Origin: a virus
Taxonomy: Duplodnaviria; Heunggongvirae; Uroviricota; Caudoviricetes
IMG/VR virus record: IMGVR_UViG_2690316002_000013
Reading direction: 5' to 3' (one strand)
DNA length: 11,067 bases
This document shows, one piece after another, positions 1 through 11,067 of the stretch (within the stretch, counting starts at the first letter, position 1; each line of letters starts with the position of its first letter). The position numbers and the translations under genes were made by a program. A model generated the notes under the pieces. That model was not told the DNA's origin, searched no databases, and saw only the letters and a program-made list of their open reading frames with translations.

Positions 1-1461
1 ATGAAAAAATTACTGCATCTTTTTTTCCCGCTCTCGCTGCGGGTACGTTTTCTGTTAGCAACGGCAGCAGTAGTATTGGTGCTTTCGCTTGCCTACGGAA
101 TGGTTGCGCTGATCGGTTATAGCGTCAGTTTCGATAAAACCACGTTTCGGCTGTTACGTGGCGAGAGCAATCTGTTCTATACCCTTGCGAAGTGGGAAAA
201 CAATAAGTTGCATGTCGAGTTACCCGAAAATATCGACAAGCAAAGCCCCACCATGACGCTAATTTATGATGAGAACGGGCAGCTTTTATGGGCGCAACGT
301 GACGTGCCCTGGCTGATGAAGATGATCCAGCCTGACTGGCTGAAATCGAATGGTTTTCATGAAATTGAAGCGGATGTTAACGATACCAGCCTCTTGCTGA
401 GTGGAGATCATTCTATACAGCAACAGTTGCAGGAAGTGCGGGAAGATGATGACGACGCGGAGATGACCCACTCGGTGGCGGTAAACGTCTACCCGGCAAC
501 ATCGCGGATGCCAAAGTTAACCATTGTGGTGGTGGATACCATTCCGGTGGAGCTAAAAAGTTCCTATATGGTCTGGAGCTGGTTTATCTATGTGCTCTCA
601 GCCAATCTGCTGTTAGTGATCCCGCTGCTGTGGGTCGCCGCCTGGTGGAGTTTACGCCCCATCGAAGCCCTGGCAAAAGAAGTCCGCGAACTGGAAGAAC
701 ATAACCGCGAATTGCTCAATCCAGCCACAACGCGAGAACTGACCAGTCTGGTACGAAACCTGAACCGACTGTTAAAAAGTGAACGCGAACGTTACGACAA
801 ATATCGTACGACGCTCACCGACCTGACCCATAGTCTGAAAACGCCACTGGCGGTGCTGCAAAGTACGCTGCGTTCTCTGCGTAGTGAGAAGATGAGCGTC
901 AGTGATGCTGAGCCGGTAATGCTGGAGCAAATCAGCCGCATTTCACAGCAAATTGGCTACTACCTGCATCGTGCCAGTATGCGCGGCGGGACATTGCTTA
1001 GCCGCGAGCTGCATCCGGTCGCCCCACTGCTGGACAATCTCACCTCGGCGCTGAACAAAGTGTATCAACGCAAAGGGGTCAATATCTCTCTCGATATTTC
1101 GCCAGAGATCAGCTTTGTCGGTGAGCAGAACGATTTTGTCGAGGTGATGGGCAACGTGCTGGATAATGCCTGTAAATATTGCCTCGAGTTTGTCGAAATA
1201 TCTGCAAGGCAAACAGACGAGCATCTCTATATTGTGGTCGAGGATGATGGCCCCGGTATTCCCTTAAGCAAGCGAGAGGTCATTTTCGACCGTGGTCAAC
1301 GGGTTGATACTTTACGCCCTGGGCAAGGTGTAGGGCTGGCGGTAGCCCGCGAAATCACCGAGCAGTATGAGGGTAAAATCGTCGCCGGAGAGAGCATGCT
1401 GGGCGGTGCGCGGATGGAGGTGATTTTTGGTCGCCAGCATTCTGCGCCGAAAGATGAATAA
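1..1461 (+). CDS. phoQ: Sensor histidine kinase PhoQ (PhoP/PhoQ two-component system), complete 486 aa
   Basis: Full-length ORF starting at window position 1. Translation shows N-terminal TM helix, periplasmic acidic patch ([11 protein letters not shown]), H-box ([12 protein letters not shown]) and HATPase motifs ([15 protein letters not shown]). Matches my recollection of E. coli PhoQ almost residue for residue. Confidence 0.97.
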
Positions 1462-2592: not shown

Positions 2593-2795
2593 CGGGTCCT
2601 TCCTGGAATTATGGACCCGTTACGGGGCGGCGACCTCGCGGTTTTTATCTGTTTATGAAAATTTTCCGGCAAAAGTCAGATCCGTTCTTCTTCTCTGTAA
2701 CAGACTGTTTAACAATGAAAATATTAAAAAAAGAAAGGATCTGACACGAGGCATTTTAGCCAGAAAATGCCATTATCAGATCCTTTCTCATTTTT
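2593..2795 (+). other. Lambda-type cohesive-end site cos-1: cosQ-like arm, cosN (GGGCGGCGACCT, 2625-2636) and cosB with R3/R2/R1-like repeats (GATCCGTTCTTC 2679-2690; GAAAGGATCTGA 2733-2744; AGATCCTTTCTC 2778-2789)
   Basis: 2619-2700 closely follows the phage lambda left end as I recall it (GGGCGGCGACCTCGCGGGTTTTCGCTATTTATGAAAATTTTCCGG...CCGTTCTTCTTC). Orientation is cosN then cosB toward higher coordinates. Confidence 0.8.
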
Positions 2796-3358: not shown

Positions 3359-3534
3359 TAATACACCAACTTAATTACTGCTTCAGGTTGGTGTATTGTT
3401 TGCATCTTTCCCTTTTTATTCATAAAGATAGATCAAACAACGAAACCACCACCACCCCCCTGAAAAGGCTCATAAATAGCGAAAAACCGCTAGGTCGCCG
3501 CCCCGTAACGGGCCATAATTCCAGGAAGGACCCG
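3359..3534 (-). other. Second lambda-type cos (cos-2), inverted: cosN complement AGGTCGCCGCCC at 3492-3503, cosQ-like arm to 3534, degenerate cosB and a 9-bp-stem hairpin (3364-3397) just upstream of terS
   Basis: Reverse complement of 3485-3534 matches 2593-2641 with only two differences (one 1-bp indel, one mismatch). Similarity to cos-1 and to lambda fades inside cosB. Confidence 0.75.
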
Positions 3535-3535
3535 T

Positions 3536-3557
3536 AAAAAAGCCGGATTTCTCCGGC
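3536..3557 (-). terminator. Intrinsic terminator closing the head operon (minus strand: GCCGGA-gaaa-TCCGGC then TTTTTT)
   Basis: GC-rich 6-bp stem, 4-nt loop, U6 tract, 7 bp after the stop of the 137-aa gene. First of three near-identical copies. Confidence 0.6.
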
Positions 3558-3563
3558 CTTGTC

Positions 3564-3977
3564 TCAGATGGTTTTCAGTATGCGATCGATGTCGCCGTCA
3601 TCGCCCTGGTTTCTGCCATCGTATGCCATGCCAGCTGATACGGCTTGCGGGCTGTGCATGTCCATAAAGTTTTCAAAGGCTGCGGTAAGTTCCGGCGCAA
3701 CCTTCGGACGTTCCTGCTCTATGGTCATGCTAAGGATGCTTTTAGCCGTACCAACATCGATACAAGGCACGTTTGCCATTGCACGCAACAGCGGCTGATA
3801 GTCTTTATGCTCATGAAGCGCCATAATCGCATCAGCGCGCGGCTTGTCCTGCTCTTCCAGTTTGTTTAGTTGATATACGGCCTCATAGGTTGATAAACCT
3901 CTGTCAGCCATTGCCCGCGCTTCGACTTTAAATTTACTCGCCAGCGGTAGCGTCATGATGCTTTCATTCGTTGCCAT
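3564..3977 (-). CDS. Hypothetical protein (137 aa) between the decoration gene and cos; possible packaging or head-completion factor
   Basis: Intact ORF with strong SD (AGGGGGAA) 12 bp after the decoration gene stop. No similarity recognised to lambda FI, FII, W or Nu3 by eye. Confidence 0.65.
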   Translation of the reverse strand: MATNESIMTLPLASKFKVEARAMADRGLSTYEAVYQLNKLEEQDKPRADAIMALHEHKDYQPLLRAMANVPCIDVGTAKSILSMTIEQERPKVAPELTAAFENFMDMHSPQAVSAGMAYDGRNQGDDGDIDRILKTI

Positions 3978-3989
3978 CGTTCCCCCTGC

Positions 3990-4325
3990 TTATCGGGCCA
4001 GCGGCTGAACGGATACGCCGGAACCCGCAAAGGCGGCGCATTTTTTCGCATCGGTGTCGACGCTCTCAGGCCAGTTAACGGCGGCAATATTGAATATCCC
4101 CGTCTTGTAACACTGTGCTGATTTCTGCTTTGACGTGCCCACAGGGTACGAGGTCAGATAAACAGCCTTGCCAGATTCCTGACCATCCCACGGCTTAAAC
4201 TCGCCATTGTCTGCCAGCATCAGCGGGGTAAATTCCTGAATAACGCCAGCATCAGCGGCAAAATGTACCAACGTCGTGGATACCTGCTGACTGCCTGCAA
4301 ATAACTCAATGTATGGAGTGTCCAT
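3990..4325 (-). CDS. Head decoration protein, lambda gpD family (111 aa)
   Basis: Aligns with lambda gpD: TPLMLADNGEFKPWDG vs TPLMLDTSSRKLVAWDG, CYKTGIF vs FYKSGTF, KKCAAFAGSGVSV vs KKRTAFAGTAISIV. SD GGGGGGA upstream, 12 bp after the capsid gene stop. Confidence 0.9.
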   Translation of the reverse strand: MDTPYIELFAGSQQVSTTLVHFAADAGVIQEFTPLMLADNGEFKPWDGQESGKAVYLTSYPVGTSKQKSAQCYKTGIFNIAAVNWPESVDTDAKKCAAFAGSGVSVQPLAR

Positions 4326-4337
4326 AGAATCCCCCCG

Positions 4338-5393
4338 TTAACCAATTTTGACGGTAACAAATTTGCGAATATCTGCCGGTACCGGCTGCGGTGCACTGTG
4401 TGTCTGCACGTACTCAATCGCCGGATCGCCGTCCTCAATCCAGTTTTTCGGGTAAAACATGTTTTGTGTTGCGCCCGTTCTTACCGCTTCCTGATCCATT
4501 ATCGCACCATAGGCCACCAGCCCTTTATTGTTGGTGTTACCCAGGACCAGCAAATCAGGCTCAAGGAAATATTTTTCGGTACCATCGCTGTCAGTGTATT
4601 TGCCGGAATAGACGATAAGGGCCAGATCACCAAGATAGCCTTTAAAGCTCACCACTTCGCCCAGGTTTTTACAGGCCAGTTCGGCGGCGGATTCTGAACC
4701 ACGGGAAAGATCGTACAGCTCACGGAATTTTTTAAAGCTGCCTAATGTGCGCCATACCTCAGCGCCCATAATCATGACGTTTGCGGGGCAACCAGCCTGA
4801 TCAGCATAAAGCTCGATGTCATAGATTGGGTCGTGCATGTCTTTATCCTGCTCGGACCATTTTTTACCCTTGGCCTGCTCTATGATGCAGTTTTCCGGTA
4901 TTTTCCAGTCGATTTCATAGCGTTCTATGCCTTCGCCCTCAATGATGTTTTTTCCGGTCGTTACCGCATTCACCGCCAGCCATTCCACGCGTGCCTTAAT
5001 GGCGTTTATCTGGCGGCGCATGTTGCCAGTAATCAGGCGCATACGGCGATAGGTAGGGTCGTTAAGCTGTGCCGGATCTTCTCCAGCCATGCGCATGATG
5101 GTTTTCGTTGGATCGATTTCGTGCTTTGGCTTCATGTAGCCAGGTTTGATTGTGCTGGTTTCGTACCCTTTATCGCGCTGAACCTGGCTACCCACCATAG
5201 GCGAACAAAACGCCGACATGGTGACTTCTTCAATGTCCAGGGTATCCAGCATGATGTTTTGCGTGCTGAATGTCGCCACGTTCGGGAAAAACAGCGTGGT
5301 AAACAGAGGGCTGAATTTAAAATCCGCAATATCCCCGCGATTCAGGTACATGAAAAGCTGGTTAGTGTTAAGTGCCGTTGCTTTGCCTGCCAT
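4338..5393 (-). CDS. Major capsid protein, lambda gpE family (351 aa)
   Basis: Extensive by-eye alignment with lambda gpE (FKFSPLFTTLFF vs FKFDPLFLRLFF; PGYMKPKHE vs PGYVKPKHE; DPTYRRMRLI vs DPAYRRRRII; VSFKGYLGDLALIVYSGKY vs VSYKGMYGDVAIVVYSGQY; LVLGNTNNKGLVAYG vs MVLGNTQARGLRTYG; YPKNWIEDGDPA vs YPKNWVTTGDPA). Confidence 0.95.
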   Translation of the reverse strand: MAGKATALNTNQLFMYLNRGDIADFKFSPLFTTLFFPNVATFSTQNIMLDTLDIEEVTMSAFCSPMVGSQVQRDKGYETSTIKPGYMKPKHEIDPTKTIMRMAGEDPAQLNDPTYRRMRLITGNMRRQINAIKARVEWLAVNAVTTGKNIIEGEGIERYEIDWKIPENCIIEQAKGKKWSEQDKDMHDPIYDIELYADQAGCPANVMIMGAEVWRTLGSFKKFRELYDLSRGSESAAELACKNLGEVVSFKGYLGDLALIVYSGKYTDSDGTEKYFLEPDLLVLGNTNNKGLVAYGAIMDQEAVRTGATQNMFYPKNWIEDGDPAIEYVQTHSAPQPVPADIRKFVTVKIG

Positions 5394-5599
5394 TATTCAC
5401 CCCCATAATTTTTATGCATCCCAAGCGCCGCAAGTAAATAAGAGCGTACAAGTGAACCTATCGACGGCTCCGGCGTCATCAGCGGATCCAGTCCAGCCGC
5501 AACGCCAGCTTCATAGTTTTTTTTGTGGCGCTGCTTGAGCACCTCCACGATTTCGGGGCTTATGTACACCGAAACACCGCCTTTTTTCTCTTCAGCCAT
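5393..5599 (-). CDS. Small ribbon-helix-helix-like protein (about 68 aa from Met at 5597-5599), translationally coupled to the capsid gene
   Basis: SD AGAGGA precedes the ATG at 5597-5599. Its stop overlaps the capsid start (TAATG). The segment KGGVSVYISPEIVEVLKQ looks like an RHH beta-strand plus helix; this is an inference from the pattern, not a search. Confidence 0.55.
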   Translation of the reverse strand: MAEEKKGGVSVYISPEIVEVLKQRHKKNYEAGVAAGLDPLMTPEPSIGSLVRSYLLAALGMHKNYGGE

Positions 5600-5631
5600 A
5601 GTAAGAAATTCCTCTTCGACTAAAAAAATCA

Positions 5632-5690
5632 TAACTGGATGTTTATCCAGTCCTGATTATAATCAGAATTGCATTTTATGCAATGATATT
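5632..5690 (-). promoter_or_regulatory. Candidate promoter/operator region of the RHH-capsid operon with three palindromes: CTGGAT-gttt-ATCCAG (5635-5650), TGATTATAATCA (5654-5665), TTGCAT-ttt-ATGCAA (5669-5683)
   Basis: Seen in sequence. TATAAT lies inside the central palindrome on both strands, and TTGCAT/ATTGCA sits 15-16 bp away as a possible -35. Confidence 0.45.
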
Positions 5691-5764
5691 GAGTTATGTT
5701 GCAAATTATGAAATGATTATCCCGATCACGAACGCCAGTGCATCCAAAAACCTCATATGCAAAA

Positions 5765-5802
5765 GCCCGATAAGAACCCTCTGACCTTATCGGGCTTTTT
5801 TT
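5765..5802 (+). terminator. Plus-strand intrinsic terminator (GCCCGATAAG ... CTTATCGGGC then T6)
   Basis: 10-bp GC-rich stem followed by TTTTTT on the plus strand only, although every annotated gene nearby is on the minus strand. Confidence 0.55.
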
Positions 5803-5808
5803 GGGCGC

Positions 5809-5830
5809 AAAAAAGCCGGATTGCTCCGGC
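5809..5830 (-). terminator. Intrinsic terminator after the 74-aa gene (GCCGGA-gcaa-TCCGGC then T6 on minus strand)
   Basis: Second copy of the AAAAAAGCCGGATTKCTCCGGC module. Confidence 0.6.
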
Positions 5831-5850
5831 TATGTGTGCTGTGTGCTGGC

Positions 5851-6075: not shown

Positions 6076-6171
6076 TGTTTTTTTCCTCTGTTGTGTCTGT
6101 TTGTTTCAGATAGTAACTATGCCTGACCGTGACGAAAACCCGGTAATGCGCCATACCGTTTCAACTGGTGC

Positions 6172-6194
6172 AAAAAAAGCCGGATTTCTCCGGC
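6172..6194 (-). terminator. Intrinsic terminator after the PerC-like gene (third copy of the GCCGGA-tttc-TCCGGC module with A/T tract)
   Basis: Hairpin 6179-6194 preceded on the plus strand by A7 (U-tract on the minus strand), 8 bp after the stop. Confidence 0.6.
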
Positions 6195-7345: not shown

Positions 7346-8385
7346 ATAGCGGCGCTACATCATCCCCATCGATACGAATAACCCCATCTTTTTCCAGCTT
7401 GTACAGCCAGCGCCGGAAGTTTTTCATTTCATACCCCAGCTTTTTCATGTCATCACGTAACAGCGGGATCGTGCACTTGTCGCCGTTCTGTGTGCGTGAA
7501 CGGATGCACCCCCATAGCGCGGTATGGTTTTCCGTCTTGTTCCCTGCCTCCTCGATGCGCTCCAGTTCAACAGGAGGGCGCGGATCATCCACCACCACCA
7601 GCGACGTGATTAATTCACCGTCAGCGTCGGTAAAAAGCTCCACCACGCGTAAGTCATATGCGGCTTCTTTGAGTTCCTCCGCGTCCTTCATTTTGGTGCA
7701 TGAGATAACCAGCGCTTCGCTTCCTGCGTCCTCCCTGCGTATCCGGTATTCAGCATCCAGCGAAGCACGAAATGCACTGGAACCGCGCGCGCCTTTCGTC
7801 TCATCCTTGCCGGAATGGTGAACCACCAGCACCGTGGCCCCTGTGCGTCGTTTCAGTTCGTCACAACCACGGATAAACGCCCCATATCACGGGAATCATT
7901 TTCATCATTCCCACCAAAGCAACGCGCCAGCGTATCCAGAATAATCATGCGTACAGGTTTACCCGTTTCCCGCTCCACCTGACGGGCAGCGATAACCATT
8001 TCATCAACATCAAGCGGGGCAGCCGGAAAGATGGGGCGGTTTACCAGATACAGATTTTTCACCTGCTCATCGTGCACAACCTCCCAGGCTTTTACACGAC
8101 GCGGAACACCTATACCGCCTTCACCAACCACATAGAGAACCGCACCATGTGCAACCCTGCGGCCTCCCCACTGGCGACCAGTGGCAACATGGCACGCCCA
8201 CGATCCGGCAAGGAATGATTTATAGGACCCGCTAGCCCCGTATATGCTGCATAGCGATACCGCCGGAATAATCCCCTTAACCACGTAATCCAGTTGCGTG
8301 TCGTATCCGGTAGATCCAACGCTCATCGGTAGCGTGGTTTTTCGCTGGTGGTTTTTTTCTTCCGCCGGCTCTTTCCCGCGCACCC
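7344..8385 (-). pseudogene. RepA-like replicative ATPase (AAA_25/RecA-fold, DnaB-like helicase family) with C-terminal winged-helix-like domain; reading frame broken by a 1-nt frameshift near 7872-7877, 5' end running into the N gap
   Basis: Walker A GASGSYKS, Walker B-like MIILDTLA and the LVVHHSGKD motif lie in two different frames (tracks 7853..8623 and 7344..7832). One extra A in the run at 7875-7877 would give a continuous ...DMGRFIRGCDELKRRTGATVLVVHH... . A possible ATG start is at 8324-8326 but has no SD. Confidence 0.6.
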
Positions 8386-8616
8386 NNNNNNNNNNNNNNN
8401 NNNNNNNNNNNNNNNNNNNNNNNNNNNNNNNNNNNNNNNNNNNNNNNNNNNNNNNNNNNNNNNNNNNNNNNNNNNNNNNNNNNNNNNNNNNNNNNNNNNN
8501 NNNNNNNNNNNNNNNNNNNNNNNNNNNNNNNNNNNNNNNNNNNNNNNNNNNNNNNNNNNNNNNNNNNNNNNNNNNNNNNNNNNNNNNNNNNNNNNNNNNN
8601 NNNNNNNNNNNNNNNN
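8386..8616. other. Assembly gap (231 N)
   Basis: Run of n characters. Truncates the RepA-like gene on one side and the pin gene on the other. Confidence 0.99.
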
Positions 8617-9063
8617 GGTACAAAGTCCGAAAGGCCGGGACTGAAAAAACTGCTCAGGACATTATCGGCAGGTGACACGCTGGTGGTCTGGAAACTGGAC
8701 CGGCTGGGGCGCAGTATGCGGCATCTTGTCGTGCTGGTGGAGGAGTTGCGCGAACGAGGCATCAACTTTCGTAGTCTGACGGATTCAATTGATACCAGTA
8801 CCCCAATGGGGCGCTTTTTCTTTCATGTGATGGGTGCCCTGGCTGAAATGGAGCGTGAACTGATTGTTGAAAGAACAAAAGCTGGACTGGAAGCTGCTCG
8901 CGCACAGGGACGAATTGGTGGACGTCGTCCCAAACTTACACCAGAACAATGGGAACAGGCCGGACGATTAATTGCATCAGGAGTTCCTCGCCAGAAGGTG
9001 GCGATTATCTATGATGTTGGTGTGTCAACTTTGTATAAGAGGTTTCCTGCAGGGGATAAATAA
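8617..9063 (+). CDS. pin: Serine recombinase / DNA invertase of the Pin-Gin-Hin-Cin family, 3' part only (N-terminal ~35-40 codons lost in the gap)
   Basis: In-frame translation from 8617 reads GTKSERPGLKKLLRTLSAGDTLVVWKLDRLGRSMRHL...FFFHVMGALAEMERELIVERT...GRIGGRRPKLT..., closely matching e14 Pin as I recall it. Followed by mcrA as in e14. Confidence 0.9.
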   Translation, partial: GTKSERPGLKKLLRTLSAGDTLVVWKLDRLGRSMRHLVVLVEELRERGINFRSLTDSIDTSTPMGRFFFHVMGALAEMERELIVERTKAGLEAARAQGRIGGRRPKLTPEQWEQAGRLIASGVPRQKVAIIYDVGVSTLYKRFPAGDK

Positions 9064-9169
9064 AGTTAAAGACACTTTGTGTACAAAAGAAAGTAAAACA
9101 ACAGCAACTTGTTGCAATTTTATCAATAAAAGTAGTATTGTCGTGAAAAATTGATTAAAGATTAATATT

Positions 9170-10003
9170 ATGCATGTTTTTGATAATAATGGAATTGAAC
9201 TGAAAGCTGAGTGTTCGATAGGTGAAGAGGATGGTGTTTATGGTCTAATCCTTGAGTCGTGGGGGCCGGGTGACAGAAACAAAGATTACAATATCGCTCT
9301 TGATTATATCATTGAACGGTTGGTTGATTCTGGTGTATCCCAAGTCGTAGTATATCTGGCGTCATCATCAGTCAGAAAACATATGCATTCTTTGGATGAA
9401 AGAAAAATCCATCCTGGTGAATATTTTACTTTGATTGGTAATAGCCCCCGCGAGATACGCTTGAAGATGTGTGGTTATCAGGCTTATTTTAGTCGTACGG
9501 GGAGAAAGGAAATTCCTTCCGGCAATAGAACGAAACGAATATTGATAAATGTTCCAGGTATTTATAGTGACAGTTTTTGGGCGTCTATAATACGTGGAGA
9601 ACTATCAGAGCTTTCACAGCCTACAGATGATGAATCGCTTCTGAATATGAGGGTTAGTAAATTAATTAAGAAAACGTTGGGTCAACCCGAGGGCTCCAGG
9701 AAACCAGTTGAGGTAGAAAGACTACAAAAAGTTTATGTCCGAGACCCGATGGTAAAAGCTTGGATTTTACAGCAAAGTAAAGGTATATGTGAAAACTGTG
9801 GTAAAAATGCTCCGTTTTATTTAAATGATGGAAACCCATATTTGGAAGTGCATCATGTAATTCCCCTGTCTTCAGGTGGTGCTGATACAACAGATAACTG
9901 TGTTGCCCTTTGTCCGAATTGTCATAGAGAATTGCACTATAGTAAAAATGCAAAAGAACTAATCGAGATGCTTTACGTTAATATAAACCGATTACAGAAA
10001 TAA
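9170..10003 (+). CDS. mcrA: 5-methylcytosine-specific (type IV) restriction endonuclease McrA, HNH family, 277 aa
   Basis: Translation matches my recollection of E. coli K-12 McrA along its whole length; C-terminal HNH/zinc motif (CENCG...HHVIPLSSGG...CPNCH). AT-rich gene typical of horizontally acquired DNA. Confidence 0.95.
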   Translation: MHVFDNNGIELKAECSIGEEDGVYGLILESWGPGDRNKDYNIALDYIIERLVDSGVSQVVVYLASSSVRKHMHSLDERKIHPGEYFTLIGNSPREIRLKMCGYQAYFSRTGRKEIPSGNRTKRILINVPGIYSDSFWASIIRGELSELSQPTDDESLLNMRVSKLIKKTLGQPEGSRKPVEVERLQKVYVRDPMVKAWILQQSKGICENCGKNAPFYLNDGNPYLEVHHVIPLSSGGADTTDNCVALCPNCHRELHYSKNAKELIEMLYVNINRLQK

Positions 10004-10141
10004 AATTGTTTATTAAAGTCACATTTAAGACGTAATACCCTACAGGGTAAAAATTTTCTCTGATCTTAACTTCTGCAAATGTTAACTGCTATTTTTATGC
10101 TAAAAATGGTTATCAAAACTCAAAAACACATGTTTATAATC

Positions 10142-10178
10142 AATGAGTTATAGAAATGCTAAGGGCTAATGAGTTATA
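10142..10178. repeat. Direct repeat AATGAGTTATA x2 (10142-10152, 10168-10178) in the AT-rich arm upstream of the icdC core
   Basis: Seen in sequence. Its position 60-100 bp from the icd homology boundary would suit arm-type binding sites of an att site. Confidence 0.4.
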
Positions 10179-10236
10179 TGCAAATTAGTAAAATTATGTT
10201 GCTATCTCAAATAGTTACGATTTAGTCATCTAACTA

Positions 10237-10401
10237 ATGCTGCGCCATATGGGCTGGACTGAAGCCGCAGACCTGATTGTTAAAGGTATGGAAGGCGCAA
10301 TCAACGCCAAGACCGTAACCTATGACTTCGAACGTCTGATGGAAGGCGCTAAACTGCTGAAATGTTCAGAGTTTGGTGACGCGATCATCAAAAATATGTA
10401 A
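10237..10401 (+). pseudogene. icdC: Duplicated 3' end of isocitrate dehydrogenase gene (icdC-type fragment, 54 codons), marking an e14-type attachment site
   Basis: Translation [54 protein letters not shown] is the Icd C-terminus with two substitutions relative to the host sequence I recall (D to E, E to K). No upstream icd body is present. Confidence 0.85.
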
Positions 10402-10424
10402 TTACCACATGTGTTAAATATTAT

Positions 10425-10453
10425 AACGGGCGTATAACACGCCCGTTGTTTTT
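10425..10453 (+). terminator. Intrinsic terminator after the icd 3' fragment (AACGGGCGT-ataac-ACGCCCGTT then T5)
   Basis: 9-bp GC-rich stem and U-tract 24 bp after the stop codon. Confidence 0.65.
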
Positions 10454-10662
10454 ATAAATATGTTAACCGTTATAAAATAACGTATCAAAAGTCAAGTGAA
10501 CACATTTCAAATATCAATTTGATCGTATTGGTCTGGTGATTATTTATGGGGAGCAATAAAAAGACAGTATTAATCATCCATAGGGATAGTCTCTGCACTT
10601 TTATTTCCATTATGCTAATGCCTTACTGAATTATGAAGCATTTTTTAAGCTCCCAACTTTAG

Positions 10663-11067
10663 CTAGATTAATGGTTTATTATTTTCTACATCTTCAATAT
10701 ATAAAAGCGTATTATCAATGGCGTAGTAACTGCGTTTGTTATGATTAACATCAGTAACCCACCGGAAAACGCCAGCGCCTGCCAGTGTTGAACAGTATTC
10801 CCGAAATGTAGATTTTCCGCGAATATGAAGCAATGCGGCCTCTTTTATTTTAGCTGGGTTCTTGGTCGTACTAACTTTTAACAGGTTCCTGGTTCCTCTT
10901 AATAACAAAACCGTGTCATCGTGAGTAATAATTCTGATGTTATCCGTAGCCAGATAATAAATGTAATGTGCAATACGGTGATGTTTTAATTCTGAATAAA
11001 ACCAGGAGAAGTTTTGCTCTTTTCTCACTTGCTCAAACATCTTTTGAAAAACAACGACCTGATCCAT
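10663..11067 (-). CDS. ycgX: 134-aa hypothetical protein, probably the DUF1398-family protein YcgX by position and length
   Basis: Complete ORF whose start codon is the last three bases of the window. Assignment rests on remembered K-12 synteny (mcrA-icdC-[iraM]-ycgX) and the matching 134-aa length, not on recognising the sequence. Confidence 0.55.
   Translation of the reverse strand: MDQVVVFQKMFEQVRKEQNFSWFYSELKHHRIAHYIYYLATDNIRIITHDDTVLLLRGTRNLLKVSTTKNPAKIKEAALLHIRGKSTFREYCSTLAGAGVFRWVTDVNHNKRSYYAIDNTLLYIEDVENNKPLI

What the first reader, a model, noticed from the sequence alone, without database searches (positions are those of the whole stretch)
5597..5700. Capsid operon headed by an RHH-like protein and a triple-palindrome control region
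Upstream of the RHH gene are three perfect palindromes (CTGGATgtttATCCAG, TGATTATAATCA, TTGCATtttATGCAA) overlapping -10/-35-like hexamers. The RHH ORF is fused to the capsid gene by a TAATG overlap. A DNA-binding-type protein made with the capsid protein from an operator-rich promoter suggests autoregulation or helper-responsive derepression, unlike lambda where head genes are read from pR'.
Basis: partly seen in the sequence, partly recalled or inferred. Interest (0 to 1): 0.5.

Follow-up and report, generated by a model that had tools for sequence, protein, structure and literature searches.

The report
SOS-controlled promoter of satellite capsid operon
The three palindromes sit in the promoter of the capsid operon of an E. 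coli phage satellite and are three different things: a likely binding site for the host DNA-damage repressor LexA, one of two copies of a satellite-specific operator probably read by the small first protein of the operon, and the promoter's own -10 box.

Summary
All three perfect palindromes, the 68-aa ORF and the TAATG overlap are present, all on the minus strand. The element is an EcCICFT073-type Gram-negative phage-inducible chromosomal island (PICI) next to phoQ.

The "triple operator" reading does not hold, because the palindromes are three different things:
- **CTGGAT-N4-ATCCAG (5635-5650)** is a strong LexA/SOS box. It scores 20.3 bits against the next best 6.1 in the window, has the same arms as the ruvAB box, and overlaps the predicted transcription start. 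Natural variants that break the hairpin score higher as LexA boxes.
- **TTGCAT-N3-ATGCAA (5669-5683)** overlaps the -35. The pair is kept in six lineages that carry a homologue of the 68-aa gene, down to 43% protein identity and with a different downstream cargo.
- **TGATTATAATCA** is the -10 TATAAT with symmetric flanks.

The 68-aa protein is satellite-specific. It looks ribbon-helix-helix (RHH)-like, but only by sub-threshold evidence.

Best model: the promoter is repressed by LexA and induced by the SOS response, with feedback from the RHH-like protein. This parallels the LexA-controlled operon I of SaPIs and P22 Arc. I found no report of it for Gram-negative PICIs.

The parts
5808..5831 (-). 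Intrinsic terminator T1, which ends the upstream PICI transcription unit (PerC and the 74-aa gene)
   Evidence: stem AGCCGGAGCAATCCGGCT followed by a T-run. Sequence.
5761..5795 (-). Second tandem intrinsic terminator T2 (GCCCGATAAG...CTTATCGGGC followed by TTTT). It insulates the late promoter from upstream transcription.
   Evidence: Sequence. The stem is invariant and the loop variable across the E. coli copies.
5699..5713 (-). O1: degenerate upstream copy of the dyad (TTTCATAATTTGCAA), at about -64 to -50.
   Evidence: It matches 10 of 12 arm positions and lies 30 bp (centre to centre) upstream of O2. The same two-site layout is found in six lineages.
5669..5683 (-). It contains the -35 hexamer TTGCAT (5683-5678).
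   Evidence: The consensus of 14 sites is TTGCAT-AAW-ATGCAA. The arms are conserved where the 15-nt stretch between the sites has drifted to 4 of 15 identity (L149).
5653..5666 (-). It is the -10 hexamer TATAAT (5661-5656) with symmetric flanks.
   Evidence: The core is nearly invariant. Changes at the outer pair are not convincingly compensatory (about 38 of 62 variants paired, against about 30 expected). The palindrome is lost in L149.
5633..5652 (-). It spans roughly -3 to +17 relative to the predicted transcription start near 5649.
   Evidence: It scores 20.3 bits (19.4 when the CTGG-type training sites are left out) and has a heterology index of 6.26, within the range of proven boxes. The next best score in the window is 6.1. 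Random sequence gives about 0.5 sites of at least 20 bits per Mb. The arms are identical to those of the ruvAB box.
5600..5632 (-). 5' leader: a U-run (5628-5622), the Shine-Dalgarno sequence AAGAGGAA (5616-5609), and a predicted structure that sequesters the Shine-Dalgarno sequence and the AUG
   Evidence: -22.6 kcal/mol for 5654-5585, z = -4.8. The small hairpin over the Shine-Dalgarno sequence is kept with different bases in Salmonella (GGAA/UUCU against GGUG/UACC).
5393..5599 (-). 68-aa satellite-specific protein (phrog_3255, function unknown). It is RHH-like and is the candidate binder of O1/O2.
4338..5393 (-). Major capsid protein of the lambda gpE family (351 aa)
   Evidence: PF03864, E = 2e-49; phrog_29.
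3990..4325 (-). Head decoration protein of the lambda gpD family (111 aa)
   Evidence: PF02924, E = 6e-17.
3564..3977 (-). 137-aa protein, last gene of the operon. It resembles the C-terminal (Nu3 scaffold-like) part of head maturation proteases.
   Evidence: phrog_1999; phrog_53 positions 496-567, E = 6e-9.
3536..3557 (-). Intrinsic terminator (GCCGGAGAAATCCGGC followed by a T-run) that closes the four-gene capsid operon before the cos/terS module

Best explanation
**What it is.** The flagged region is the sigma-70 promoter of the "late zone" of an EcCICFT073-type Gram-negative PICI. Two tandem terminators insulate it from upstream transcription. It drives a four-gene operon: the 68-aa protein, a gpE-like capsid protein, a gpD-like decoration protein and a Nu3-like protein.

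**Two repressors are predicted to control it.**
1. Host LexA binds the CTGGAT-N4-ATCCAG box that overlaps the transcription start. The operon is therefore silent until DNA damage triggers LexA self-cleavage. That same signal induces lambdoid helper prophages.
2. The first gene product is a satellite-specific protein of about 68 aa with an RHH-like strand-helix-helix pattern. It binds the two TTGCAT-N3-ATGCAA dyads, O2 over the -35 and O1 30 bp upstream on the same face of the helix. This gives negative feedback on the operon, as Arc does on Pant in P22.

**The third palindrome** is simply the -10 TATAAT with symmetric flanks.

**Shown.** The sequence features, their statistics, their conservation, and the linkage between the gene and the dyads.

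**Inferred.**
- That LexA binds the box (my estimate, about 0.8).
- That O1/O2 are protein-binding sites (about 0.75).
- That the 68-aa protein is the binder and is an RHH protein (about 0.5-0.6).
- The position of the transcription start.
For: **Context**
- The full element in L001 runs int, HTH regulator, Icd-like, RepA helicase, SSB, PerC, 74-aa gene, 68-aa gene, capsid, decoration, 137-aa gene, Nu1-like terS. It lies between roxA and phoQ.
- The published EcCICFT073 element has c1499 as capsid and c1500 as decoration protein (PMC6092414).

**LexA box**
- A position weight matrix (PWM) built from 18 UV-induced E. coli sites (PMC3009722 Table 4) gives 20.3 bits at 5633-5652. The next best in the window is 6.1.
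- The score is 19.4 bits when ruvA, cho and dinG are left out of the training set.
- The heterology index is 6.26, against 0.27-9.29 for the known sites. In 2 Mb of random sequence there was 1 site of at least 20 bits.
- The arms are identical to those of the ruvAB box, which I verified in K-12.
- 60 of 62 distinct promoter variants keep a box of 16-22 bits. The recurrent ATCCAG-to-ATACAG variants break the palindrome and hairpin but raise the LexA score to 21.6.

**Dyads O1/O2**
- Two sites 30-32 bp apart are found in all six lineages that carry a homologue of the 68-aa gene, at 43-100% protein identity.
- The arms match at 9-12 of 12 positions, while the sequence between the sites falls to 4 of 15.
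- L149 keeps the dyads and the gene although its downstream cargo is different (a tail-spike context) and SSB, PerC and the 74-aa gene are absent.
- Within the window and L001, sites with 0 or 1 mismatch occur at this promoter and at only two other places: 6159-6173, just after the PerC gene, and L001 4217-4231.

**The protein**
- The conserved pattern is GGV(S/T)VYISP-helix...PSxGxxVRxxLRxxLG.
- AF2 predicts an extended segment at residues 8-14, then helices 15-34 and 47-58, with pLDDT 74.
- 9 of 17 family members give sub-threshold hits to Pfam RHH_1 or to the RHH antitoxin family BrnA.
- No homologue is found in 50,697 phage records.
Against: **RHH assignment**
- No test of RHH membership is significant. 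There is no Pfam hit above threshold.
- Foldseek against PDB and BFVD found nothing meaningful.
- hhalign against a CopG-family profile gave a P-value of 0.056 and a probability of about 1%.
- The AF2 monomer model shows no beta-strand.

**LexA box**
- Binding is predicted, not measured.
- The box is absent from three of the six lineages (L153, L149, L265), so it is an add-on and not part of the ancestral promoter.
- Published work found that alpA induction in EcCICFT073 depends on the helper phage and not on SOS (PMC6092414). Nothing has been measured for this promoter.

**O1/O2**
- They could be read by AlpA or by another protein shared by all PICIs, which co-occurrence cannot exclude.
- The promoter variants are close relatives, so conservation counts are not independent.

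**Functional importance**
- One natural recombinant (KY176) carries the promoter without the 68-aa gene.
- c1498-c1501 can be replaced by cas9 without loss of transfer (PMC10530653), so the operon and its control are not essential in the laboratory.
Confidence: 0.55

Rival explanations
1. All three palindromes are operators for the RHH-like protein, which autoregulates the operon until a helper-phage protein lifts repression.
For: The three palindromes cluster more than chance would give. Their arms are conserved while the linkers and loops vary. The gene and the promoter are tightly linked.
Against: - The three palindromes have unrelated half-sites: TTGCA, TGATTA and CTGGAT.
- Only the TTGCA dyad follows the gene into distant lineages.
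- The CTGGAT element scores as a bona fide LexA box, and its natural variants drift toward the LexA consensus rather than toward palindromy.
- No helper-responsive element was found, and the region has no similarity to phage DNA.
Confidence: 0.1
2. The CTGGAT palindrome acts at the RNA level rather than as a LexA site. It would be a stem-loop at the 5' end of the mRNA that stabilises the transcript. Alternatively, together with the U-run, it would be a leader attenuator or terminator that an antiterminator reads through.
For: - The hairpin folds at -9.8 kcal/mol with z = -3.9, and the terminator scan flags it.
- Its loop varies while its stem is conserved.
- It would lie at the very 5' end of the transcript.
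Against: - Six to seven nucleotides separate the stem from the U-run, which is poor geometry for a terminator.
- The recurrent ATACAG variants introduce an uncompensated G-A mismatch in the stem.
- No compensatory pairs were seen.
- The element is absent from three lineages that keep the rest of the promoter.
- No pause-inducing -10-like element is conserved, and nothing resembles a lambdoid pR'/qut region.
- An RNA role and a LexA role are not mutually exclusive.
Confidence: 0.12
3. The O1/O2 dyads are read by some other factor, such as AlpA, PerC or a host regulator. The 68-aa protein would then not be a transcription factor, but for example a capsid-assembly or size-determining accessory protein made together with the capsid protein.
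For: - The RHH evidence is sub-threshold.
- The ORF is translationally coupled to the capsid gene in E. coli.
- AlpA is present in all such PICIs, so co-occurrence cannot exclude it.
- A GCAACA-like motif between O1 and O2 resembles the direct repeats in the alpA promoter region.
Against: - The alpA promoter region carries GCAACAA/GGAACAA direct repeats, not TTGCA dyads.
- PerC is absent next to the promoter in the Salmonella, L153 and L149 elements.
- L149 keeps the gene and the dyads but has no gpE-type capsid gene.
- The translational coupling is not conserved.
- A site over the -35 and spacer suits a repressor.
Confidence: 0.2
4. The palindromes have no regulatory meaning. They would be by-products of AT-rich promoter hexamers in a constitutive promoter.
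For: TATAAT is nearly self-complementary. The region is 33% GC. The perfect 6-bp arms of O2 are specific to this lineage.
Against: - The local-composition shuffle gives P = 0.007.
- About 100 bp is conserved between E. coli and Salmonella while the flanking sequence cannot be aligned.
- The two-dyad layout is kept at 43% protein identity.
- The LexA score is far above background.
Confidence: 0.03

Closest known systems
SaPI operon I, the packaging operon of Staphylococcus aureus pathogenicity islands, which is repressed by LexA (Ubeda et al. 2007, cited in PMC6092414 and PMC6739421)
   Same: It is a morphogenesis/packaging operon of a phage satellite placed directly under the host SOS repressor. 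Its expression therefore coincides with helper prophage induction.
   Different: - The host is Gram-positive, with an unrelated LexA box consensus and unrelated genes.
- No small autoregulator encoded as the first gene has been described there.
- The case here is a prediction from sequence only, and I found no report of LexA control for Gram-negative PICIs.
The arc-ant operon (Pant) of phage P22 immI, with the RHH repressor Arc. This comparison rests on my own knowledge.
   Same: A small RHH protein is encoded as the first gene of an operon. It binds a dyad operator that overlaps the promoter of that same operon, giving a burst of expression followed by shut-off.
   Different: - There is no detectable sequence relationship.
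- The operator sequence and spacing differ.
- The cargo here is capsid genes rather than an antirepressor.
- Binding is not shown here.
The ruvAB SOS box of E. coli (CGCTGGATATCTATCCAGCA)
   Same: It has identical CTGGAT and ATCCAG arms with a 4-nt centre. Its LexA PWM score and heterology index are similar to those of the box found here (18.4 bits, heterology index 6.54).
   Different: The central four bases and the flanks differ. The ruvAB box controls a chromosomal repair operon, not a mobile element.
EcCICFT073 and related Gram-negative PICIs (Fillol-Salom et al. 2018 and 2019; Nielsen et al. 2023)
   Same: - The gene order is the same and the late zone is of the same kind, with gpE-like capsid, gpD-like decoration and Nu1-like (Rpp-type) genes.
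- The promoter and the 68-aa gene are present in ST73 strains (Nissle 1917, ATCC 25922, clone D i14), the lineage I take CFT073 to belong to.
   Different: The published work covers AlpA-dependent induction and Rpp-dependent packaging. It reports no phenotype for c1499 or c1500. It does not describe this promoter, its LexA box, the dyads or the 68-aa protein.
Lambdoid late promoter pR' with Q antitermination
   Same: A strong promoter is followed closely by a hairpin and a U-run, upstream of head genes.
   Different: - There is no sequence similarity to any phage record.
- The hairpin is better explained as a LexA box.
- The hairpin and U-run do not have terminator geometry.
- No pause element is conserved.
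I rejected this as a model.

Membership tests
LexA (SOS) box of Enterobacteria | A 16-bp CTG-N10-CAG core within a 20-bp dyad resembling TACTGTATATATATACAGTA | tested here: met
   GACTGGATAAACATCCAGTT has intact CTG and CAG. Its arms are the same as those of the ruvAB box.
LexA (SOS) box of Enterobacteria | A score or heterology index within the range of experimentally supported sites and far above background | tested here: met
   - 20.3 bits, against 6.6-27.6 for the 18 known sites scored leave-one-out.
- Heterology index 6.26, against 0.27-9.29 for the known sites.
- Next best score in the window is 6.1.
- About 0.5 sites of at least 20 bits per Mb of random sequence.

LexA (SOS) box of Enterobacteria | A position that lets LexA block RNA polymerase (overlapping the promoter or the transcription start) | tested here: met
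   The box starts 3 nt after the perfect -10 TATAAT. The transcription start itself is predicted, not mapped.
LexA (SOS) box of Enterobacteria | LexA binding and SOS-dependent derepression | not testable with these tools
   This needs gel-shift or footprint assays, and reporter assays in lexA(Ind-) or recA backgrounds.
Ribbon-helix-helix (MetJ/Arc/CopG) superfamily | A significant sequence match to an RHH family profile | tested here: not met
   - Only sub-threshold hits were found: BrnA_antitoxin at E = 0.017 and RHH_1 at E = 0.15-0.2, in 9 of 17 members.
- hhalign against a CopG-family profile gave a P-value of 0.056.
- A profile search of PDB sequences found no RHH protein.
Ribbon-helix-helix (MetJ/Arc/CopG) superfamily | An N-terminal beta-strand followed by two helices | tested here: inconclusive
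   - The AF2 monomer model shows an extended segment at residues 8-14, then helices 15-34 and 47-58, with pLDDT 74. No strand can form without the partner subunit.
- Foldseek was negative.
Ribbon-helix-helix (MetJ/Arc/CopG) superfamily | A dimer formed by pairing of the two strands; binding to repeated or inverted DNA sites | not testable with these tools
   No multimer prediction was available. The conserved O1/O2 dyads linked to the gene are indirect support only.
Gram-negative PICI (EcCICFT073 type) | int, alpA-type regulator and primase or replicase helicase in one orientation; size of about 10-15 kb; no tail or lysis genes | tested here: met
   L001, the same element at 100% identity over the query, has int, a 62-aa HTH regulator, a RepA helicase, SSB, PerC and the late zone in about 11 kb between roxA and phoQ. 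The window itself lacks the left part: it has an N-run at about 8370-8620, then pin and mcrA.
Gram-negative PICI (EcCICFT073 type) | A late zone with captured lambdoid head genes, a Nu1-like Rpp/TerS gene and a cos site | tested here: met
   Pfam hits to Phage_cap_E, HDPD and Phage_Nu1. Exact lambda cosN sequence GGGCGGCGACCT present.
Gram-negative PICI (EcCICFT073 type) | Helper-phage-dependent induction and transfer | not testable with these tools
   Shown in the literature for EcCICFT073 only (PMC6092414).
Lambdoid pR'/Q-antiterminated late promoter | A Q-binding element, a sigma-dependent pause signal and a downstream intrinsic terminator; similarity to phage late regions | tested here: not met
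   No DNA match in 50,697 phage records. The candidate -10-like element TATGAT is not conserved (it reads TGTGAT, CCTGAT or TCTGAT). The spacing between stem and U-run is wrong for a terminator.

The most novel reading that the evidence does not exclude
Gram-negative PICIs of this family carry their own late-zone repressor. It would be a satellite-specific RHH-like protein whose TTGCAT-N3-ATGCAA operators are shared across otherwise different satellites. This repressor would combine with host LexA to form a two-key switch. Because the operator is conserved between lineages, the protein could also act in trans between co-resident satellites. That would give cross-immunity or cross-regulation, for example for recombinants such as KY176 that keep the operators but have lost the gene. 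It would also supply the "missing repressor" of Gram-negative PICIs, for the late module at least.
Probability: 0.2. Interest if true: 0.6.

Novelty: new variant of a known kind. Interest (0 to 1): 0.42.

Why it matters
**The gap.** For Gram-negative PICIs only AlpA-dependent induction and Rpp-dependent packaging are understood. The 2018 description states that whether a repressor exists is unclear. The capsid and decoration genes have no known phenotype.

**What this adds.**
- A LexA box on the late-zone promoter would mean the satellite senses DNA damage directly, in parallel with its helper prophage. That would be convergent with staphylococcal SaPIs.
- The linked dyads and the RHH-like gene point to a satellite-encoded feedback regulator.

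**Why it is testable.** Both predictions can be checked cheaply by gel shift and by reporter assays in lexA(Ind-) cells. The strains needed are already widely used: about 600 of 5,426 complete E. coli genomes carry the element, including O157:H7, Nissle 1917 and ATCC 25922.

**Limits.** The components (LexA box, RHH autoregulator) are well-known kinds. The operon is dispensable for transfer in the laboratory.

Tried and rejected
- **Q-antitermination / pR'-like reading** of the promoter, hairpin and U-run. Rejected: no phage DNA similarity, poor terminator geometry, no conserved pause element.
- **Leader terminator or 5' stabiliser hairpin.** Kept only as a minor rival, because the ATACAG variants break the stem yet improve the LexA score.
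- **Covariation at the outer pair of the -10 palindrome** (C/G against A/T). About 38 of 62 variants are paired against about 30 expected. Given how closely related the variants are, this is not convincing.
- **Scan of genome contigs for the upstream box** AATCATTTCATAATNTNCAAC.
- **Scan of viral contigs for two perfect dyads 14-18 bp apart.** It gave 74 hits, nearly all coding repeats. Only L210, which has the same upstream sequence as L153, carries a homologue of the 68-aa gene.
- **Structure and profile searches.** Foldseek against PDB and BFVD returned nothing significant. The afdb50 library was unavailable. PDB sequence-profile searches found only chance hits. hhalign against a CopG profile was not significant. 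NCBIfam gave no hits.
- **Nu1-like protein against PDB.** No hit, so identity with a solved Rpp could not be checked.
- **Other regulators for O1/O2 and the -10 palindrome, judged from memory only.** The ArgR, PurR, FNR and CRP consensus sequences do not fit the spacing or half-sites of O1/O2. The -10 palindrome matches a Fur 7-1-7 box at 10-11 of 14 positions, which I regard as a by-product of AT-rich -10 sequence. PutA's RHH domain is remembered to bind GTTGCA; this lead could not be verified in the paper library.
- **Literature.** Searches for the protein accessions and for LexA control of Gram-negative PICIs found nothing.
Full report
**1. What is in the window**

The window starts with phoQ (1-1461, plus strand). 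It then carries, on the minus strand, the right-hand two thirds of a small mobile element. Pfam and PHROG searches give this gene order along the direction of transcription:
- a RepA-type helicase, interrupted by a run of N;
- a 93-aa protein;
- SSB;
- a PerC-family protein;
- a 74-aa protein;
- the 68-aa ORF (phrog_3255, function unknown);
- a lambda gpE-type major capsid protein;
- a gpD-type decoration protein;
- a 137-aa protein resembling the Nu3 end of head proteases;
- a Nu1-like small terminase;
- a 93-aa protein.

The same DNA at 100% identity occurs in E. coli 14EC047. There the complete element lies between roxA and phoQ and also has an integrase, a 62-aa HTH regulator and Icd-like genes. 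This is the architecture of the Gram-negative phage-inducible chromosomal islands typified by EcCICFT073, in which c1499 is the capsid homologue, c1500 the decoration homologue and c1503 is Rpp (PMC6092414; PMC6739421). The region around the finding is present in about 590-600 of 5,426 complete E. coli genomes, including O157:H7, O55:H7, O26, O103, Nissle 1917 and ATCC 25922.

**2. The observation**

The three perfect palindromes are real:
- 5635-5650, CTGGAT-N4-ATCCAG;
- 5654-5665, TGATTATAATCA, extendable to 14 bp;
- 5669-5683, TTGCAT-N3-ATGCAA.

On the coding (minus) strand they follow two tandem intrinsic terminators (5831-5808 and 5795-5761). They overlap a promoter made of TTGCAT, a 16-nt spacer and TATAAT. 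The 68-aa ORF (5599-5393) overlaps the capsid ATG by one base, giving TAATG. The longer 79-aa reading is not conserved.

Three such palindromes within 50 bp are unusual. They appeared in 2% of whole-window shuffles and in 0.7% of shuffles with the local composition.

**3. Comparative evidence**

I collected 62 distinct versions of the promoter from E. coli genomes, Salmonella and IMG/VR contigs. I also collected four more distant lineages through homologues of the 68-aa protein:
- HE-PICIs, 51% identity (L150-152);
- a lineage at 56% identity (L265-270);
- a lineage at 51% identity (L153-155, L210);
- a satellite-like contig at 43% identity, whose downstream genes are different and end in a tail spike (L149).

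Between E. coli and Salmonella about 100 bp, from -69 to +35, is conserved, while the flanks cannot be aligned and the protein is only 55% identical. The three palindromes behave differently from one another across this set.

**3a. TTGCAT-N3-ATGCAA**

- Its perfect 6-bp arms are particular to this lineage. Most copies read TTGCAC, TTGCGC or TTGCGA on the left while the right arm stays ATGCAA. There is therefore no compensatory change, and the dyad usually has 4-5 bp arms.
- A second, degenerate copy (O1) lies exactly 30 bp upstream: TTTCATAATTTGCAA, 5713-5699. In the distant lineages both copies are good dyads. L153 has TTGCACTTTATGCAA and TTGCATGTTATGCAA, 32 bp apart. L149 has TTGCGTTTTATGCAA and TTGCATTTAGATCAA, 30 bp apart.
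- Against L149 the arms match the window at 9 of 12 positions in each site, while the 15 nt between the sites match at 4 of 15. This is a phylogenetic footprint of a protein-binding dyad.
- The only gene that accompanies the dyads everywhere is the 68-aa homologue. PerC, SSB and the 74-aa gene are missing next to the promoter in several lineages.
- AlpA cannot be excluded by co-occurrence. However, the region upstream of alpA in L001 carries GCAACAA/GGAACAA direct repeats rather than such dyads.

**3b. TGATTATAATCA**

This contains the perfect -10.
- Its core is almost invariant.
- The outer pair switches between C/G and A/T, but mispaired combinations are frequent. About 38 of 62 variants are paired, against about 30 expected.
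- The symmetry is reduced or lost in L153 and L149.

I read it as the -10 with symmetric flanks. A further role cannot be excluded.

**3c. CTGGAT-N4-ATCCAG**

This begins 3 nt after the -10 and so spans the predicted transcription start.
- It fits CTG-N10-CAG and has exactly the arms of the ruvAB SOS box. I confirmed that box in the K-12 sequence and in a published table of LexA motifs upstream of UV-induced genes (PMC3009722).
- A position weight matrix (PWM) built from those 18 sites gives 20.3 bits. That is about the median of the leave-one-out scores of the known sites. The next best score in the 11-kb window is 6.1.
- Leaving out the three CTGG-type training sites still gives 19.4 bits.
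- The heterology index is 6.26, against 0.27-9.29 for the training sites. Random sequence yields about 0.5 sites of at least 20 bits per Mb.
- Sixty of the 62 variants keep 16-22 bits.
- The recurrent ATCCAG-to-ATACAG variants destroy the perfect palindrome and put a G-A mismatch into the RNA hairpin, yet they score higher (21.6 bits) as LexA boxes. This argues for LexA and against both an RNA hairpin and a symmetric operator for another protein.
- The box is absent from L153, L149, L265 and from the HK97-type capsid-forming PICI (L148). It is therefore a lineage-specific addition found in the E. coli, Salmonella and HE-PICI copies.

**4. The 68-aa protein**

The family is small and restricted to Enterobacteria (25 clusters among 5.8 billion; 17 representatives in the exhaustive HMM search). 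It has no homologue in 50,697 phage records.

The conserved pattern is GGV(S/T)VYISP, a helix, a loop, then PSxGxxVRxxLRxxLG. This reads like the strand-helix-helix signature of RHH proteins.
- AF2 gives an extended segment at residues 8-14 and two helices, at pLDDT 74.
- Nine of 17 members give sub-threshold hits to Pfam RHH_1 or to the RHH antitoxin family BrnA, aligned on the strand and first helix.
- Foldseek was negative, and a profile-profile comparison with a CopG-family alignment was not significant.

I therefore call the protein RHH-like, with a probability of about 0.6. Family membership is not established.

**5. Mechanism proposed**

In the resting cell LexA sits on the transcription start of a promoter that would otherwise be strong. 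DNA damage, which also induces lambdoid helper prophages, removes LexA. The operon is then transcribed. Its first product binds O2 over the -35 together with O1 three helical turns upstream, and damps further initiation.
- Shown: the sequence statistics and the conservation.
- Inferred: all binding, the sign of regulation by the 68-aa protein, and the transcription start.

A predicted leader structure that sequesters the Shine-Dalgarno sequence and the AUG may additionally limit translation of the first gene. It has z = -4.8, and its small hairpin is kept by different bases in Salmonella.

**6. Comparison with known systems and novelty**

LexA control of a satellite packaging operon is established for SaPI operon I in S. 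aureus. A small RHH protein encoded first in the operon it represses is the Arc/Pant arrangement of P22 (my own knowledge).

The Gram-negative PICI papers I could search describe AlpA, Rpp and the lack of phenotype for c1499 and c1500. They show that c1498-c1501 can be replaced by cas9 (PMC10530653). They mention LexA only when citing the SaPI work.

This is therefore a new variant of known kinds of control, predicted for a widespread element. It is not a new kind of system. Its practical interest is that it is cheap to test in standard strains.

**7. Limits**
- The promoter copies are closely related, so counts of variants are not independent events.
- No multimer structure prediction was available.
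- No expression data were examined.

Noticed in passing
window 2593-2669 (+) and 3459-3534 (-): Two lambda-type cos regions, each with the exact cosN sequence GGGCGGCGACCT, lie in inverted orientation on either side of the Nu1-like terS/rpp gene. The arms are 85-96% complementary. The meaning of a pair of inverted cos sites in a PICI is unclear.
   Followed up: partly
L001 3406-3425 and 3517-3536 (int-alpA intergenic region of the complete element; not in the window): Two further LexA-like boxes lie upstream of alpA. TACTGGTTTTTTATACACTA scores 19.0 bits but ends in CAC rather than CAG. TACTGGATATGCGAACAGAT scores 13.4 bits. Published work found alpA induction to be SOS-independent, so these need testing.
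   Followed up: no
L001 3425-3470 and 3683-3706: Four direct repeats of GCAACAA/GGAACAA/CGAACAA, spaced about 10-11 bp apart, lie upstream of alpA, and similar motifs lie nearer the gene. They are candidate AlpA sites. A related GCAACA(T/C)AAC lies between O1 and O2 of the late promoter.
   Followed up: no
L007 (E. coli JNEC-KY176) 1500-1830; compare L148: A natural recombinant. The late promoter of this PICI type, up to the CTGG of the LexA box, is fused to the long structured leader and HK97-type capsid gene of a capsid-forming PICI. It has no 68-aa gene and no LexA box.
   Followed up: partly
window 5585-5632 (-): The U-run and AGUCG of the leader are predicted to pair with the first codons (GGCUGAAGAGAA), burying the Shine-Dalgarno sequence and the AUG. 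The fold of 5654-5585 as a whole is -22.6 kcal/mol with z = -4.8. In Salmonella the small Shine-Dalgarno hairpin is kept with different bases.
   Followed up: partly
L149 440-640: Six or more copies of GTGAGGAG lie between the RepA-type helicase gene and the promoter of the 68-aa homologue in a distant satellite-like contig. They are probably origin iterons.
   Followed up: no
window about 8370-8620 and 8683-11067: A run of N interrupts the RepA helicase gene. Beyond it the window continues into pin, mcrA and ycgX (the end of the e14 prophage) instead of the PICI's alpA/int end next to roxA as in L001. This is either a rearrangement or an assembly join.
   Followed up: no
window 3564-3977 (-): The 137-aa last gene of the operon matches only the C-terminal 70 residues of head maturation protease profiles (phrog_53, E = 6e-9). 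This is the part that corresponds to the lambda Nu3 scaffold. The satellite may therefore carry capsid, decoration and scaffold-like genes but no protease or portal gene.
   Followed up: no
window 3542-3557, 5815-5830, 6179-6194: Nearly the same terminator hairpin (GCCGGA-N4-TCCGGC followed by a T-run) is used three times in the element, at module boundaries.
   Followed up: no
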